DNA of 20,000 nt from Chiloscyllium plagiosum (Eukaryota). The translations under genes and the position numbers were made by a program. Where the stretch lies: NCBI RefSeq assembly GCF_004010195.1, contig NC_057718.1, positions 56,336,984 through 56,356,983 of the forward strand, written 5' to 3'. This document shows positions 1,634 to 18,472 of the stretch, piece by piece. The stretch's first letter is position 1. Every line of letters starts with the position of its first letter. Below the pieces are notes generated by a model that saw only the letters and a program-made list of their open reading frames with translations, ran no database searches and was not told the origin of the DNA.

Positions 1634-1773
1634 CTGGAATACATGTAATATGGAAGACATCTTCCTGTGGCGGTAAAGTCTGCTTCGTTTGCTCCTTTTG
1701 AACATCTCTTGATTTTTTTACTGCCTGCAAGTGAGCTTCTAATTCAGCTGTATTTTGTTTAATGAGATCAATT
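1634..1773 (-). CDS. CLHC1: CLHC1 coding exon 3 (140 nt)
   Basis: Acceptor ttcttttaacAG|A completes AA+A (Lys). Translates IDLIKQNTAELEAHLQAVKKSR...CIP. Donor CCAG|GTCTGA, phase 1. Phases fit both neighbouring exons, and it ends in the conserved IPG motif. Confidence 0.85.
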
Positions 1774-2360
1774 CTGTTAAAAGAATGTCCATTATTTAAC
1801 AAAATAAGAAAGAACTTACATTTATACAGATTTTATATTCACCTCAGGTGAACAAAAAGTGCTTTGCAAGCCACAAAAAGCTTATTTTTTATGAGGATGA
1901 GTGAAGAATTCTTAATACAATTTTTACTTGCCACAATTCTCAAATAACCATTTTTTTCTTGGCGTGATTTTCTATCAGGTCCCTCCAAAGGTCACGCTTC
2001 AGCTAAGAGGTGGGCATACAAAATTTATCTTCTAATTATTCCACCTTTTTCAAGTGTGTTGCACTGCTAGTTGCGAAAACAATCACAGAGGAAAATCAGA
2101 GGTTGATTTTCCTCTATCTACTAAAGTCCAGCATATAAACAATTTTGTGAAGTTTGGAGCATGGAATCGTAACACCTTTTAGGGAAGTAATTTTTCTCAT
2201 CTTAAATGGGCAATCCTTTATTCTGAAACATTGCCCCTTTCTCTAAATACACTCCATGAGGGAAAACATCCTCTTAGCATCTACTTTGTCAAGCCACTTC
2301 AGAATCTTTTATTTTTCAATAAAGTCAGATCTCATTCTTCGAAACGGAAATGGGTATAAG

Positions 2361-3996
2361 TCTAGATTAGAATGGTGCTGGAAAAGTACAGCAGGCCAGG
2401 CAGCATCCGAAGAGCAGGAAATCGACGTTTCAGGCAAAAGACGTTTCAGGCAAAAGCCCTTCATCAGGAATGAGGCAGGGAGTGTCCGGGGTGGAGAGAT
2501 AAATGGGATGGGGGTGGCTGGGGAGAAGGTAGCCAAGAGTACAATAGGTGGATGGAAGTGGGGATGAAGGTGATAGGTTGGAGAGGAGGGTGGTGTGGAT
2601 ATGTGGGAAGGAAGATTGGCAGGTAGGACAGGTCAAGAGGATGGTGTTGAGCTGGCAGGTTGGAACTGGCGTAAGGTGGGGGGAGGGGAAATGAGGAAAC
2701 AGGTAAAGTCCCCACTGATGCCCTGGGGTTGAAGTGTACGGAGACGGAAGATTAGGCATTCTTCTTCCAGGCGTTGAGTGGTGAGGGTGTGGCGGTGGAG
2801 GAGGCCCAGGACTTGCATGTCCTCGGCAGAGTGGGAGGAGGAGTTGAAATGTTCAGCCATGGGGCGGTGGGGTTGATTGGTGCAGGTGCCCTAGAGATGT
2901 TCCCTAAAGCGCTCTGCGATAAGGCATCCAGTCTCCCCAATGCAAAGGAGACTGCATCGGGAGCAACGGATACAATAAATGACATTGGTGGATGTGCAGA
3001 TGAAACTTTGATGGATGTGGAAGGCTCCTTTGAGGCCTCGGATGGAGATGAGGGGAGAGGTATGGGTGCAGGGTTTGCAATTCCTGCGGTGGCAGGGGAA
3101 GATGCCAGGATGGAGGGTGGGTTGTTGAGGGGCTTGGACCTGACCAGGATTTCATGGGAACGGTCTTTGTGGAAAGCGGAAAGGGGTGGGGAGGGAAACA
3201 TATCCCTGGTGGTTGGGTCCGTTTGGAGGTGGCGGTAATGTCGGCGGATGATGCAATTTATGCGGCGGATGATAGGGTGGAAGGTGAGAATAGTAGGTTC
3301 TGTCCTTGTTACGGTTGGAGGGATGGGGTTTGAGGGCGGAGGTACGGGACATGGATGAGATGTGTTGGAGGGCATCTTCAACCACATGAGAAGGGAAATT
3401 AAGGTCTTTAAGAGGAGGCCATCTGGTGTGTTCTATGGAGGAACTAGTCCTCCTGGGAGCAGATACAGCAGAGGCAGAGGAATTGGGAATATGGGATGGT
3501 ATTTTTGCAGGAGATAGGGTGTGAAGAGCTGTGGGAGTCGGTGGGTTTGTAAAAAATGTCAGTGTTACATCGGTTGTCATTGATGGAGATGGAGAGGTCC
3601 AGGAAGGGGAGGGAGGTGTCAGAGATGGTCCAGGTGATTTTAAGGTCGGGGTGGAATGTGTTGAAGTTGATGAACTGCTCAACCTCCTCGCGGGAGCATG
3701 AGGTAACGCCGATGCAGTCATCAATGTAGCAGAGGAAGAGGTGGGGAATGGTGCCGGAAGATGGACTGTTCTACGTAGCCAACAAAGAGACAGGCATAGC
3801 TGGGACCCATGCGGGTGCCCATGGCTACCCCTTTTGTCTGGAGGAAGTGGGAGGATTCAAAGGAGAAATTGTTAAGGGTGAGGACCAGTTCAGCCAAACG
3901 AATGGGAGTGTCAGTGGAAAGGTACTGGTGGGGACATTGGGAGAGGAAGAAATGGAGGGCTTGGAGGCCCTGGTCATGGTGGATGGAAGTGTAGAG
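2361..3996 (-). mobile_element. 5'-truncated Penelope-like retroelement (probably Neptune clade), copy A: degenerate RT + GIY-YIG endonuclease + pLTR
   Basis: The minus strand has KGVAMGT, RYIDD (3717-3728), FLDL, a Cys-rich linker CHRRNCKPC (about 3065-3095), a GIY-YIG-like NVIYCIRCSRCSLLCIGETG (about 2930-2985) and AEHFN...H...RLEEECLIFRLRTLQPQG, with frameshifts. Flanked by a 15-bp direct repeat GGAAATGGGTATAAG (2346-2360, 3997-4011). Confidence 0.9.
2424..2467 (-). ncRNA. Hammerhead ribozyme motif with internal 16-nt duplication
   Basis: Minus strand CTGATGA-A-GGGC-TTTT-GCCT-GAAACGT-CTTTTGCCTGAA-ACGTC-GATT. Confidence 0.6.
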
Positions 3997-4558
3997 GGAA
4001 ATGGGTATAAGCCCAACTGCAACCTTTTTCCATAAGTAAACTTCTTCTTGCTAAGAATCCTTCACATATCTCCAAAGTGACTCTCCACTTTATTGAATAT
4101 CTTTTCAACTGGAAGTTGAGCAATCAGCTGGTTGCTTAGGATATGGGATAGCTACATAAAATTTGGAAAGAGACACATTTCAGAAACCCGAGAAAAGAGA
4201 CATGAAAAGAAAACCATATTGGCATGCATAACTTCCTATAAATACTTTTGTATTGTACATAGAACTATGTAATTTGAATGCTTTCAAAATTGTTAACATT
4301 GATTAGGTATTTACATGTTCCATTTGTGAAATTAGATCTGATGTCACAGCTTCCATTGATAATTAGCTTTTACACAATCTTCTGTTAAAACAATATAAGT
4401 AAGCCTCTACCTATGGATGCTCAAACCAATAGGTATTGGTTTGAGCATCCAAGATCAGCCTGCTTGGTTGATCTTTTTCTACAACTGAAAACCTGCAAAT
4501 ACAAGGAGACATCCATGTGCAAACTCAACACTTACTGCAAAAACATGATTGCGTTACT

Positions 4559-4792: not shown

Positions 4793-5123
4793 ACTAAATA
4801 TTATCATTCATCTGTGAAACAAAAGCAAAAAAAAGCTGCAAAATAGACTGAAAATGCTCTTAGTTATCATTAAACAGGATTCTGAAATGTACTTATTTTT
4901 CAATGCCAAGCAACTCTGAATATCCAATTTCAATATTGAGAACCACAAATTAGTGTTGTGGAGTCAGAATATTGAGAGATTAAGAACTGGATTTTACACT
5001 GAGGCCAGCTTCTTGCATCCCAAAATAAATTTTAGCGGCAAGTTACTTCGAATTGGTTGGCTTGTTGTGCTTTATCAAGTAACAATCCATTAATTAGTAT
5101 GAGGTAGATCATCTGTCCATATC

Positions 5124-5458
5124 TGGATTAGAATGGTGCTAGAAAAGCACAGCAGGTCAGGCAGCATCCAATGAGCAGGAAAATCGACATTTTGGGCAAA
5201 AGCCCTTCATCAGGAAGACAGACAGAGTGCCTGCAGGGTGGAGAGATAAATGAGAGGAGGGTGGGGATGGGGAGAAAGTAGCATTGAGTATAATAGGTGA
5301 ATGAGGGTGGGGATGAAGGTGATAGGTCAGAGAGGAGGGTAGAGTGGATAGGTGGAAAGTAAGATAGGCAGGTAGGACAAGTCATGGGGACAGTGCTGAG
5401 TTGGGAGTTCGGAGCTGGGGTAAGGGGAAATGAGGAAACTGGTGAAGTCCACATTGAT
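5124..5458 (-). mobile_element. Inverted pLTR (copy B) forming the left end of the 5124-7185 Penelope-like insertion
   Basis: Collinear with copy A 2361-2719 and reverse-complementary to 7019-7150. Confidence 0.88.
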
Positions 5459-6130
5459 TCACAAGCCTGATCACCCTGGCCGACCCATTGTCTCAGCATG
5501 CTCCTGCCCCACCAAAATCATCTCTACCTACCTCGACACTGTCCTATCCCCCCTCGTACAGGAACTCCCCACATATGTTTGAGACACCACCCATGCCCTC
5601 CACCTCCTCCAAGACTTCCATTTCCCCGGTCCCCAACGCCTCATCTTCACCATGGATATCCAATCCCTCTACACCTCCATCTGCCATGACCAGAGCCTCC
5701 AAGCCCTCCGTTTCTTCCTCTCCCGACGTCCCCAACAGTACCCTTCCACCGGCACTCTCATTCGTTTGGATGAACTGGTCCTCACCCTTAATAATTTCTC
5801 CCTCAAATCCTCCTACTTCCTCCGGACCAAAGGGGTAGCCATGGGCACACATAGGGGCCTCAGCTATGCCTGTCTCTTTGTTCGCTACGTAGAACAGTCC
5901 ATCTTCCGTAGTTACACCGGCACCACTCCTCACCTCTTCCTCCGCTACATTAATGACTGCATTGGCGCCACCTTGTGCTCCCGCGAGGTGTTTGAGCAAT
6001 TCATCAACTTCACCAACACATTCCACCCTGACCTTAAATTTACCTGGACCATCTCTGACACCTTCCTCCCCTTTCTGGACCTCTCCATCTCCATTAATGA
6101 CAACCGCCTTGACACCAACATTTTTTACAA

Positions 6131-7018
6131 NNNNNNNNNNNNNNNNNNNNNNNNNNNNNNNNNNNNNNNNNNNNNNNNNNNNNNNNNNNNNNNNNNNNNN
6201 NNNNNNNNNNNNNNNNNNNNNNNNNNNNNNNNNNNNNNNNNNNNNNNNNNNNNNNNNNNNNNNNNNNNNNNNNNNNNNNNNNNNNNNNNNNNNNNNNNNN
6301 NNNNNNNNNNNNNNNNNNNNNNNNNNNNNNNNNNNNNNNNNNNNNNNNNNNNNNNNNNNNNNNNNNNNNNNNNNNNNNNNNNNNNNNNNNNNNNNNNNNN
6401 NNNNNNNNNNNNNNNNNNNNNNNNNNNNNNNNNNNNNNNNNNNNNNNNNNNNNNNNNNNNNNNNNNNNNNNNNNNNNNNNNNNNNNNNNNNNNNNNNNNN
6501 NNNNNNNNNNNNNNNNNNNNNNNNNNNNNNNNNNNNNNNNNNNNNNNNNNNNNNNNNNNNNNNNNNNNNNNNNNNNNNNNNNNNNNNNNNNNNNNNNNNN
6601 NNNNNNNNNNNNNNNNNNNNNNNNNNNNNNNNNNNNNNNNNNNNNNNNNNNNNNNNNNNNNNNNNNNNNNNNNNNNNNNNNNNNNNNNNNNNNNNNNNNN
6701 NNNNNNNNNNNNNNNNNNNNNNNNNNNNNNNNNNNNNNNNNNNNNNNNNNNNNNNNNNNNNNNNNNNNNNNNNNNNNNNNNNNNNNNNNNNNNNNNNNNN
6801 NNNNNNNNNNNNNNNNNNNNNNNNNNNNNNNNNNNNNNNNNNNNNNNNNNNNNNNNNNNNNNNNNNNNNNNNNNNNNNNNNNNNNNNNNNNNNNNNNNNN
6901 NNNNNNNNNNNNNNNNNNNNNNNNNNNNNNNNNNNNNNNNNNNNNNNNNNNNNNNNNNNNNNNNNNNNNNNNNNNNNNNNNNNNNNNNNNNNNNNNNNNN
7001 NNNNNNNNNNNNNNNNNC
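6131..7018. other. Assembly gap (888 N)
   Basis: Run of N. Both flanks are Penelope sequence in the same orientation. Confidence 1.
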
Positions 7019-7058
7019 CCACTTATCTCTCCACCCTGCAGGCACTCTGCCTCTATTC

Positions 7059-7086
7059 CTGATGAAGGGCTTTTGCCCGAAACGTC
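7059..7086 (+). ncRNA. Minimal type I hammerhead ribozyme motif in Penelope pLTR (best-preserved copy)
   Basis: CTGATGA-A-GGGC-TTTT-GCCC-GAAA-C-GTC: conserved CUGANGA and GAAA boxes, 4-bp helix II, loop-less palindromic helix III (ACGT) and GUC triplet. Activity not shown. Confidence 0.7.
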
Positions 7087-8706
7087 AATTTTCCTGCTCC
7101 TCGGATGCTGCCTGACCTGCTGTGCTTTTCCAGCACCACTCTAATCTAGAATCTGGTTTCCAGCATCTGCAGCCCTTGTTTTAACCATCTGTCCATATCC
7201 ACAAGACTATTCTGTCTCAAAGTTGTTAGTGGAGGCTACCATTGGTGTGAAAGGTAGACCAAGGAGATATGCCAATATGTCGCTGGAACCAGGCTGCCAG
7301 ACCCCATGACATGGAAGTAGAGGGCATGTTGGACATGGGGAGACAAAACTGCGAGTGGGGGCTTCCAATTGACACACTAGGGCAGTTGTAACAAGCAGCC
7401 ATTTCACTGATCAGCAACTGTAAAGTTAAACCTGCCAGGCAACATTGGGCACAGATTCCGCCTAACTGCCTATTAAACAGAACAGCAACTTCTTTACACC
7501 ATTGGGCTGAAGTATTTTGTTTACTTTGACAGATTTATGAACACCTAAGAGGATTGTGTATTTTTAAGTAGATTTTGAAGCAGATGGTTCATGTTTACAA
7601 AATTGTGAGGTGTTCATGTTATTATAGAGCTTACAAGTTTTATCTATATAGTGGATACTAGGGAACATTTAGTATGAGGAGGTGACCAGCACTTTAGGGA
7701 GGGTTGGAGTGGTGAGACGGAAATGGAAGCTGGCAGGCCTGACTCCAGCCAATTCTTGACATTCCGTCATGAAAATAGCTTTGGCAGGCACTACTGGATA
7801 GGAGGTGGAATTGTGACTCTCATGACTGTCAATTCTTGCCTCTAAGATGATTGGTCTTTGGACTCAGTTAAAGGGTTAGGATTGGGCCTGACTGTTTCCT
7901 CTAACACTAAAGCTTTCATGGTTTGTGGGGTTAGTTCGGGAACACTCCATCAGCATGAGGCAGTCAAGCATATTGCACCCTCTGTTTGCATATTTTACAT
8001 CCAACGGTGGTACCTAATATGAACTCCAGCATTGGCTATCATAGTAGGATCCCATAGACCACATTCCAACAGCACAACAGTTCTGTCAGCACCTGAATAA
8101 TACTGATCTGATTTTTAAAAAATATGTATACTTCTTTAGGGTCCAGACTGTTATGGTAGCTTAGACTCATCCAAGAAGTTCACATAGGGAGGCCAGTACA
8201 CCTGTCAGCACTACAACACTGGGTCCTGTCTGAAGCTCTTGAATGGAATTTCCAGGCTAGGAAGGTTTCATTCCCTCTGTATGCCATTTGCCTTACAAAA
8301 GACAAGTAGTTTCACCACTCACTAGGCTCATTAAATCTGTGAAATGGCTAAATCTTAGTGCAATCAGGTATTTATCTTTCCTGTACGTTCTATGTGATCT
8401 CCATCAGAGATACAGCAGGACCTGGTAAAATCCACATGTAATTTCAAGACTGTAGCATTTCTATATTTTCTGCTTATGTTTTGTAATTAGTAACGTATTA
8501 CTTGAAAGCTTTAGAAGTATTACAATTGTTCACAAATTGACCATACTATATTATTTTTAAATGTCTTTTCTAGTTGTCCCAAGTATTAAGGAAGAGTAAT
8601 CAAACACTATATGATTGGAATTCCTAATTTGTTTGGAACATCAAATAATTCTCACAAGATGATTTATGAGCTATGAAAAGATCTCTGCTAAGGATTCTTT
8701 TCCTAC

Positions 8707-8894
8707 TTGTTTTGAAGCTGTATGGCTCTTTTTTTGTAAGCCACGTAAGTCATTGGTTCAAAGGCCATAGATTTCAGCTTTCTCCGTAGAAACAGAGAAT
8801 CTTCTTTCCCTTTATGTAAAACATTGATACTTTCTTCATACTCTTGTTTGATGGATGTGAGGATATTTTTGTATGCTGTTGCATTTTCAATGAC
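8707..8894 (-). CDS. CLHC1: CLHC1 coding exon 2 (188 nt)
   Basis: Acceptor tttcatttcacAG|GTC (phase 0). Translates VIENATAYKNILTSIKQEYEESI...KLKSMAFEPMTYVAYKKRAIQLQN, resembling CLHC1 VIEHITAYKSILTSIKKEY...RTIQLEAK. Donor AA|GTAGGA, phase 2. Confidence 0.92.
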
Positions 8895-10530: not shown

Positions 10531-10716
10531 GGTAAAAACAAGGACTGCAGATGCTGGAAACTAGATTCTAGATTAGAGTGGTGCTGGAAAAGCACAGCAG
10601 TTCAGGCAGCATCCAAGGAGCAGGAAAATCGACGTTTCGGGCAAAAGTCCTTCATCAGGAATAGAGGCAGAGTGCCTGCAGGGTGGAAAGATAAATGAGA
10701 GGAGGGTGGGGGTGGG
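10531..10716 (-). mobile_element. Short Penelope pLTR fragment with tail (copy E)
   Basis: Near-identical reverse complement of 7023-7186 (about 8 mismatches by manual count). Interrupts the old LINE RT. No TSD seen. Confidence 0.88.
10631..10658 (-). ncRNA. Minimal hammerhead motif, one helix II mismatch
   Basis: Minus strand CTGATGA-A-GGAC-TTTT-GCCC-GAAA-C-GTC. Confidence 0.55.
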
Positions 10717-18424: not shown

Positions 18425-18472
18425 ATGCAGATCTTCGTAAAAACCCTCACGGGGAAAACGATAACCCTCGAA
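18425..18472 (+). CDS. RPS27A: Ubiquitin-40S ribosomal protein S27a fusion, first coding segment (ubiquitin residues 1-16)
   Basis: Encodes exactly MQIFVKTLTGKTITLE followed by a perfect GTAAGT donor. An intron after codon 16 is the RPS27A layout (UBB/UBC coding regions are intronless; UBA52 splits later). The exon starts at acceptor tttAG|G (18407). The divergent neighbour is CLHC1. The S27a part is outside the window, so the symbol rests on intron position and synteny. Confidence 0.9.

What the first reader, a model, noticed from the sequence alone, without database searches (positions are those of the whole stretch)
2424..2467. 16-nt duplication may convert a dimer-dependent minimal hammerhead into a cis-folding ribozyme inside the CLHC1 pre-mRNA
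Seen: GACGTTTCAGGCAAAA is tandemly duplicated (2424-2439, 2440-2455) only in this copy. The minus-strand RNA reads CUGAUGA A GGGC UUUU GCCU GAA ACGU CUUUUGCCUGAA ACGU C GAUU. Known: minimal hammerheads of Penelope-like elements have a tiny palindromic helix III and are thought to cleave as dimers. Inference: the two ACGU copies can form a 4-bp helix III closed by a 12-nt loop, placing the second GUC at the cleavage site with the original helix I strand after it. This strand is the CLHC1 sense strand (intron between coding exons 2 and 3), so it is transcribed. Caveats: helix I is weak (C-G, U-A, U.U, A-U) and helix II closes with G.U.
Basis: partly seen in the sequence, partly recalled or inferred. 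Interest (0 to 1): 0.7.

Follow-up and report, generated by a model that had tools for sequence, protein, structure and literature searches.

The report
Chance duplication in dead Penelope hammerhead
A broken jumping gene in a shark intron carries a real 16-base duplication that could let its small self-cutting RNA motif fold on its own, but such duplications recur at background rate in this genome and this copy is predicted to cut slowly at best, so it is likely a neutral accident.

Summary
The 16-nt tandem duplication (2424-2455) is exact, and the form is unique in the genome. It lies on the sense strand of intron 2 of a CLHC1-like gene, inside the minimal hammerhead at the end of a dead, 5'-truncated Penelope-like element (2361-3996, 15-bp target-site duplication). 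The two ACGU copies can form a cis helix III on paper. It is not special, however. The core occurs 64,467 times in the genome, and 18 copies carry such a repeat, against 24 for a control site in the same element. Five others are predicted to fold better. This copy has lost the conserved G10.1-C11.1 pair and carries a change that favours a competing helix. The full fold is predicted at about 1e-5. Against my reading: helix I is no weaker than in typical family copies, and 3 of 45 U6 copies join exactly at the family's predicted cut, so the family likely does cut in cells. Verdict: a neutral microduplication with at most slow cis cleavage, and no likely effect on CLHC1. The duplication is not confirmed by reads. 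The scan noted a similar case in another genome (e1-8623173).

The parts
2424..2455 (.). Exact tandem duplication of 16 nt (2424-2439, 2440-2455); 17-nt match at period 16, i.e. 1 nt of microhomology
2461..2467 (-). Hammerhead core box CUGAUGA (positions 3-9); an extra unpaired A follows at 2460
   Evidence: sequence
2448..2459 (-). Helix II, GGGC/UUUU/GCCU, opening with G.U where most copies have G-C (16 of the first 100 listed copies have this T, at a CpG); -4.8 versus -6.5 kcal/mol
2425..2444 (-). Potential cis helix III: ACGU (2444-2441) with ACGU (2428-2425), 12-nt loop; +0.2 kcal/mol as a bare hairpin, -1.2 with two extra loop pairs
2420..2424 (-). C17 (2424), predicted cut between 2424 and 2423, then the 3' strand of helix I (GAUU)
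   Evidence: sequence; family cut position matched by U6 joins at other loci
2468..2471 (-). 5' strand of helix I (AUUC): C-G, U-A, U.U mismatch, A-U; duplex about -0.1 kcal/mol; typical of the family
2409..2415 (-). GCUCUUC, which differs by one base from the family motif and pairs with 2462-2456, burying G8, A9 and one strand of helix II
2361..3996 (-). 5'-truncated Penelope-like element: end of the reverse transcriptase, GIY-YIG-type endonuclease region and 3' terminal repeat with the hammerhead; reading frame broken (5 pieces in shifting frames, 3 stops against P0021)
2346..2360 (.). Target-site duplication, first copy (15 bp)
3997..4011 (.). Target-site duplication, second copy (15 bp, identical)
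1634..1773 (-). CLHC1-like coding exon 3 (downstream of the motif)
8707..8894 (-). CLHC1-like coding exon 2 (upstream of the motif)

Best explanation
This is an exact 16-nt duplication inside the minimal hammerhead of a broken Penelope-like element in CLHC1 intron 2, likely a neutral slippage or repair accident that is predicted to give at most slow self-cleavage and likely no effect on the gene. Shown: the element inserted with a 15-bp target-site duplication, is 5'-truncated and has a broken reading frame, and both duplicated units carry the same C-to-T change. Inferred: the duplication arose after that change, in the already decaying copy. It supplies in cis the ACGU partner that a second element RNA normally supplies in a dimer. 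But helix III is marginal, helix I has 3 pairs, G10.1-C11.1 is lost and a competing helix buries part of the core. The RNA would therefore rarely reach the active fold in the short time before exon 3 is transcribed, 650 nt downstream.
For: Background rate: 32 of 64,467 core copies have a second ACGTC within 3-30 nt, and 18 repeat the 8-mer GAAACGTC. A control site 3' of the ribozyme gives 24 per at least 66,287 copies, so there is no enrichment. This exact form is single-copy, so it has not spread. Of 30 such loci folded, 20 keep the first two helix I pairs; this copy ranks 6th of 20, and the five above it keep G-C in helix II. The predicted share of the full fold is 9e-6 to 6e-9 by context, 5-10 kcal/mol above the minimum, against 0.036 when helix I is made 6 Watson-Crick pairs in silico. 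The competing helix has P 0.51 and 0.38 in 91- and 161-nt contexts, against 0.001 with the family base. The segment folds no better than shuffles (z 0.77). The element is dead. Cervera and De la Pena 2014 (PMC4209133; parts 1-2 of 4 read) list G10.1-C11.1 as highly conserved and report that a helix III added to a single motif cleaved mostly at non-physiological Mg2+. PMC10919898 (passages) cites that slow intronic ribozymes did not affect splicing.
Against: Nearest-neighbour folding is a poor guide here. Given the same duplication in silico, 24 family copies have a median of 4.7e-6, and only 11 of 24 (13 of 24 with longer flanks) score above this copy, so its helix I is ordinary. Yet 3 of 45 U6 copies examined join exactly at the base after the family's GUC, as expected if the family makes 5'-OH ends in cells (RtcB route, PMC6789731 abstract). 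Helix III is predicted in 9-21% of molecules. Restoring G-C in helix II barely changes the predicted fold, so that defect rests on conservation, not on my folding. The competing helix falls to P 0.01 in the 301-nt context. No cleavage was measured.
Confidence: 0.78

Rival explanations
1. The duplication created a monomer-active hammerhead fast enough in cells to cut a measurable share of CLHC1 pre-mRNA and lower or redirect its splicing.
For: All core bases are present, the geometry is right and the strand is the transcribed one. The family likely cuts in cells despite an equally weak helix I (3 of 45 U6 copies joined at the cut), so cell factors may rescue weak folds. In PMC4209133 adding helix III to a single motif did give cleavage.
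Against: That engineered cleavage was weak and mostly at non-physiological Mg2+. This copy has extra defects. Only 650 nt separate the cut from the next exon. There is no enrichment or spread of such duplications.
Confidence: 0.07
2. The duplication is an assembly error in a very high-copy repeat, or a variant private to the sequenced animal.
For: The motif lies in a repeat of over 64,000 exact core copies, in a fragmented assembly (101,977 contigs) with an N gap 3.7 kb away. The form occurs once in the genome. No read support for the junction was obtained.
Against: Duplications of varied length (7-34 nt) occur at similar rates at two sites of the element, as real mutation would give. The element around it has a clean 15-bp target-site duplication, and contigs of four runs from four samples run from the unique flank 26-28 nt into the element end, short of the tool's 31-nt bar.
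Confidence: 0.15

Closest known systems
Minimal type I hammerheads (min-HHR) in the terminal repeats of metazoan Penelope-like elements (Cervera and De la Pena 2014, PMC4209133; parts 1-2 of 4 read. Lunse et al. seen only as a citation in PMC6765202)
   Same: Core boxes, unpaired base between 9 and 10.1, palindromic ACGU in place of helix III, short helix I, position in the terminal repeat of a reverse transcriptase/GIY-YIG element, tens of thousands of scattered single copies.
   Different: G10.1-C11.1 replaced by G.U; helix II is 4 bp; a 16-nt duplication supplies a second ACGU in cis.
Engineered helix-III ('dimer-mimic') constructs of Schistosoma and Drosophila virilis PLE hammerheads, and fungal/protist PLE hammerheads with a long helix III (PMC4209133)
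   Same: A single motif given its own helix III, which is what the duplication does on paper; so monomer-type PLE hammerheads are already described.
   Different: Here it is a natural mutation in a dead copy with a marginal 4-bp helix III and a 3-pair helix I; the fungal motifs have a large stable helix III and measured rates (0.16 per min at 1 mM Mg2+).
Domesticated intronic ribozymes: conserved type I hammerheads in amniote introns such as RECK (PMC6155905, passages) and the CPEB3 HDV-like ribozyme (PMC10919898, passages)
   Same: A self-cleaving motif on the sense strand of an intron, possibly derived from a retroelement.
   Different: Those are conserved across species and have full folds or measured half-lives tuned to splicing. 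This is one of 64,467 copies of a repeat core, with no sign of selection and no recognisable loop 1-loop 2 contact.

Membership tests
Penelope-like element | Reverse transcriptase followed by a GIY-YIG endonuclease in one frame | tested here: met
   A weak RVT_1 hit (E 0.015, below cut-off). The 3' piece matches 485 proteins, several bearing PF01541 (recalled as GIY-YIG) or PF00078. P0021 and P0023 align in order across 3996-2584, with frameshifts and stops.
Penelope-like element | Terminal repeat carrying a hammerhead | tested here: met
   The 3' end 2361-2470 matches the family end; only the 3' repeat is present because the copy is 5'-truncated.
Penelope-like element | Clade (Poseidon, Neptune or other) by RT phylogeny | not tested
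   No tree built.
Minimal PLE hammerhead | Core boxes CUGANGA, GAA, UH | tested here: met
   Sequence. Rfam gave no hammerhead hit even at E 10.
Minimal PLE hammerhead | Unpaired base between 9 and 10.1; palindromic 15.2-16.2 | tested here: met
   A at 2460; ACGU twice.
Minimal PLE hammerhead | G10.1-C11.1 pair | tested here: not met
   G.U here; 84 of the first 100 listed copies have G-C. Filed as a decayed derivative, not an intact member.
Minimal PLE hammerhead | Helix I of 4-5 bp | tested here: inconclusive
   3 pairs around a U.U mismatch, the commonest family pattern.
Monomer-active (cis) hammerhead | Stable helix III and three-way junction in one strand | tested here: inconclusive
   Helix III P 0.09-0.21, full fold 1e-5 or lower; family copies score similarly, so the model's absolute values are unreliable.
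Monomer-active (cis) hammerhead | Self-cleavage after GUC at physiological Mg2+ | not testable with these tools
   Needs an in vitro assay.
Domesticated intronic ribozyme | Conservation of the motif at the orthologous site across species | tested here: inconclusive
   No related genome could be searched; the contig lays were uninformative (see Tried and rejected).

The most novel reading that the evidence does not exclude
Microduplication of the palindromic helix III half-site is a recurring one-step route by which dimer-only Penelope hammerheads become monomer-active ribozymes in host introns; this copy would cut CLHC1 pre-mRNA in cells, and about 20 such natural conversions in one shark genome would form a ready test series for how intronic ribozymes are born.
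Probability: 0.07. Interest if true: 0.55.

Novelty: new member of a known kind. Interest (0 to 1): 0.15.

Why it matters
As best explained it matters little: one decayed copy among tens of thousands, with a mutation that recurs at background rate. If active, it would show a one-step natural path from a dimer-only transposon ribozyme to a stand-alone intronic one, a plausible origin for domesticated intronic hammerheads. For that question the whole set is more useful than this locus, and L058, L039, L044, L036 and L034 are better candidates.

Tried and rejected
Rfam scan at E up to 10: 5 weak unrelated hits, no hammerhead. Lay 1 (4 runs, 2150-2750) was swamped by repeat copies. Lay 2 (3 runs of organism A and 1 of organism B, 2400-2480): none of the 32 pieces shown, of more than 23,000, bridges the duplication junction (longest about 41 nt; I expected a junction contig of about 54 nt). 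These are filtered contigs that drop rare paths in repeats, so this is not counted as evidence of absence. An 8-copy variant with a second ACGUC and a 5-pair helix I was considered as a spreading monomer subfamily and rejected as most likely a recurrent point change: in 4 of 8 the inverted partner arm has the ordinary base. An alternative core using the second GAA has helix II at P 0.03 or lower and still needs a dimer. Cleavage after the first GUC was rejected because helix I is absent there (sequence). The Lunse et al. paper is not held, and the supplements of PMC4209133 were not read; both may show natural variants with a lengthened helix III. One paper search (hammerhead ribozyme + tandem duplication + helix III + monomer + retrotransposon) gave 0 papers; hammerhead + shark + Penelope gave 4, none on shark elements by title. 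A search for G10.1/C11.1 rate data gave 2 papers; the passages read from one gave no rate for a G.U substitution.

Full report
Observation. The five other full family ends in the window (5213-, 7059+, 9655+, 10658-, 19828-) lack the duplication. A pattern spanning both units matches once in the 3.56-Gb genome, at this place. Exon 2 of the host gene is 100% identical to a protein that its source names CLHC1-like from Chiloscyllium plagiosum. tblastn puts the coding exons on the minus strand at 17635-17453, 8894-8707, 1773-1634 and about 957-745. The motif is therefore sense, in intron 2, with the predicted cut (2424/2423) 650 nt before the next exon.

What it sits in. A 15-bp direct repeat at 2346-2360 and 3997-4011 brackets a 1,636-bp insertion. 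Its minus strand holds the end of a reverse transcriptase (weak RVT_1 hit) and a region whose relatives carry PF01541, which I recall as GIY-YIG. It aligns to P0021 in five pieces with frame changes and 3 stops. This is a dead, 5'-truncated Penelope-like element, with the hammerhead in its 3' terminal repeat. The family is huge: 64,467 exact matches to the 27-nt core and 55,929 that include the helix I strand. Contigs of four runs from four samples pass from the unique flank 26-28 nt into the element end, just short of the tool's 31-nt bar, which suggests the insertion is shared. The duplication itself was not confirmed in reads.

Is the duplication special? 32 core copies have a second ACGTC 3-30 nt downstream, and 18 of them repeat the 8-mer GAAACGTC, with periods from 9 to 34 among the loci examined. 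A control site 3' of the ribozyme, with the same period range, gives 24 matches on at least 66,287 copies (a slightly longer anchor, so a lower bound). The rates, 2.8 and at most 3.6 per 10,000, are alike. Duplications that build a cis helix III are thus ordinary background events. Both units here carry the C-to-T change at a CpG that 16 of the first 100 listed copies show, so the duplication probably came after that change. I folded the 30 of 32 loci that were fetched. Twenty keep the first two helix I pairs, this copy ranks 6th, and the five above it keep G-C in helix II.

Would it fold and cut? With ViennaRNA constraints in four contexts (61-301 nt), helix III alone has P 0.09-0.21 and helices II plus III 0.005-0.11. 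The full junction with two helix I pairs has 6e-5 to 6e-8, and with all three pairs 6e-6 to 6e-9. Helix I is worth about -0.1 kcal/mol and the bare helix III hairpin +0.2. Making helix I six Watson-Crick pairs in silico lifts the full fold to 0.036. A one-base difference from the family motif creates a 7-bp helix (2462-2456 with 2415-2409) that buries G8, A9 and helix II. It has P 0.51, 0.38 and 0.01 in 91-, 161- and 301-nt contexts, against 0.001 or less with the family base, and it is the only helix in the centroid structure. Cervera and De la Pena (PMC4209133; parts 1-2 of 4 read) name G10.1-C11.1 as highly conserved. They found no cleavage by a single minimal motif and low cleavage by dimers; when a helix III was engineered into one motif, cleavage occurred mostly at non-physiological Mg2+. 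That is close to the experiment this duplication performs. PMC10919898 (passages) cites that fast intronic ribozymes block splicing and slow ones do not. With 650 nt to go, polymerase would reach exon 3 in well under a minute (elongation rate recalled).

Results against my reading. The weak helix I is the family norm. Given the same duplication in silico, 24 family copies from 30 loci have a median of 4.7e-6, and 11 of 24 score above this copy (13 of 24 with longer flanks). Restoring G-C in helix II hardly moves the number. Following a lead from an earlier scan note (e1-8020112), I read the 3' flanks of 45 of 48 U6 matches. Three (L076, L093, L109) join exactly at the base after the family's GUC, and a fourth (L092) appears by eye to join the element body elsewhere. 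U6 with a cyclic phosphate is ligated by RtcB to 5'-OH ends (PMC6789731, abstract), so the family likely does cut at this site in cells. The folding model's absolute numbers therefore cannot exclude activity, and slow cis cleavage by this copy is plausible. What those joins do not show is that a decayed single copy cuts: they may come from intact, tandem or inverted elements with better 5' context, like L023 and L022, which have long helices I.

Verdict. The feature is real in the assembly and correctly described. It is best explained as a neutral microduplication in a dead Penelope-like copy, with at most slow cis cleavage and no likely effect on CLHC1 (0.78). A fast, gene-affecting ribozyme gets 0.07, and an assembly error or private variant 0.15. 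Minimal PLE hammerheads, monomer-type PLE hammerheads and engineered helix III versions are all published. My one search for a natural duplication of this kind found no paper, but the Lunse et al. paper and the supplements of PMC4209133 were not seen. The scan has noted the family many times and a similar duplication in another genome. Other papers opened, as passages only: PMC6155905, PMC6765202, PMC7229834, PMC544870 and bioRxiv 10.64898/2026.07.22.740005.

Noticed in passing
L076, L093, L109 (G000:C10:28341500-28341820, C7:109202480-109202800, C10:45249630-45249950): 3 of 45 U6 copies examined are joined exactly at the base after the family's predicted hammerhead cut, a sign of in vivo cleavage and RtcB-type ligation. 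Already noted by the scan (e1-8020112).
   Followed up: partly
L058 (G000:C80167:3485-3531), L039, L044, L036, L034: Other copies with a second ACGUC, intact G-C in helix II and a better predicted cis fold than the window copy; L058 has a 5-pair helix I.
   Followed up: partly
L023/L024 (G000:C1:817724-817814) and L022: L023/L024: head-to-head inverted hammerheads whose spacer gives one copy an 8-pair helix I. L022: an extended helix I with an internal loop. This suggests that the active ribozyme may get its helix I from a different 5' context.
   Followed up: no
window 10623-10658 and 5178-5213, minus strand: Two more sense-strand family copies in the same CLHC1 pre-mRNA: 10658 has an intact core with a mismatch in helix II; 5213 has a broken core. 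The 10658 copy is a possible dimer partner.
   Followed up: no
window 18425-18472, plus strand: Exon reading MQIFVKTLTGKTITLE, the start of ubiquitin, head-to-head with CLHC1; the RPS27A identity and the human synteny are recalled, not tested.
   Followed up: partly
window 5100-7200: A second Penelope-like insertion with inverted ends (5122-5252 against 7020-7150) spanning an 888-nt N gap.
   Followed up: no
window 4407-4457: Short hairpin with about 21-bp arms giving weak miRNA-family hits far below cut-off; likely a small inverted repeat.
   Followed up: no
L062-L069: Eight copies share a point change that makes a second ACGUC with a 5-pair helix I; likely recurrent mutation, since the inverted partner arm lacks it in 4 of 8.
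   Followed up: yes
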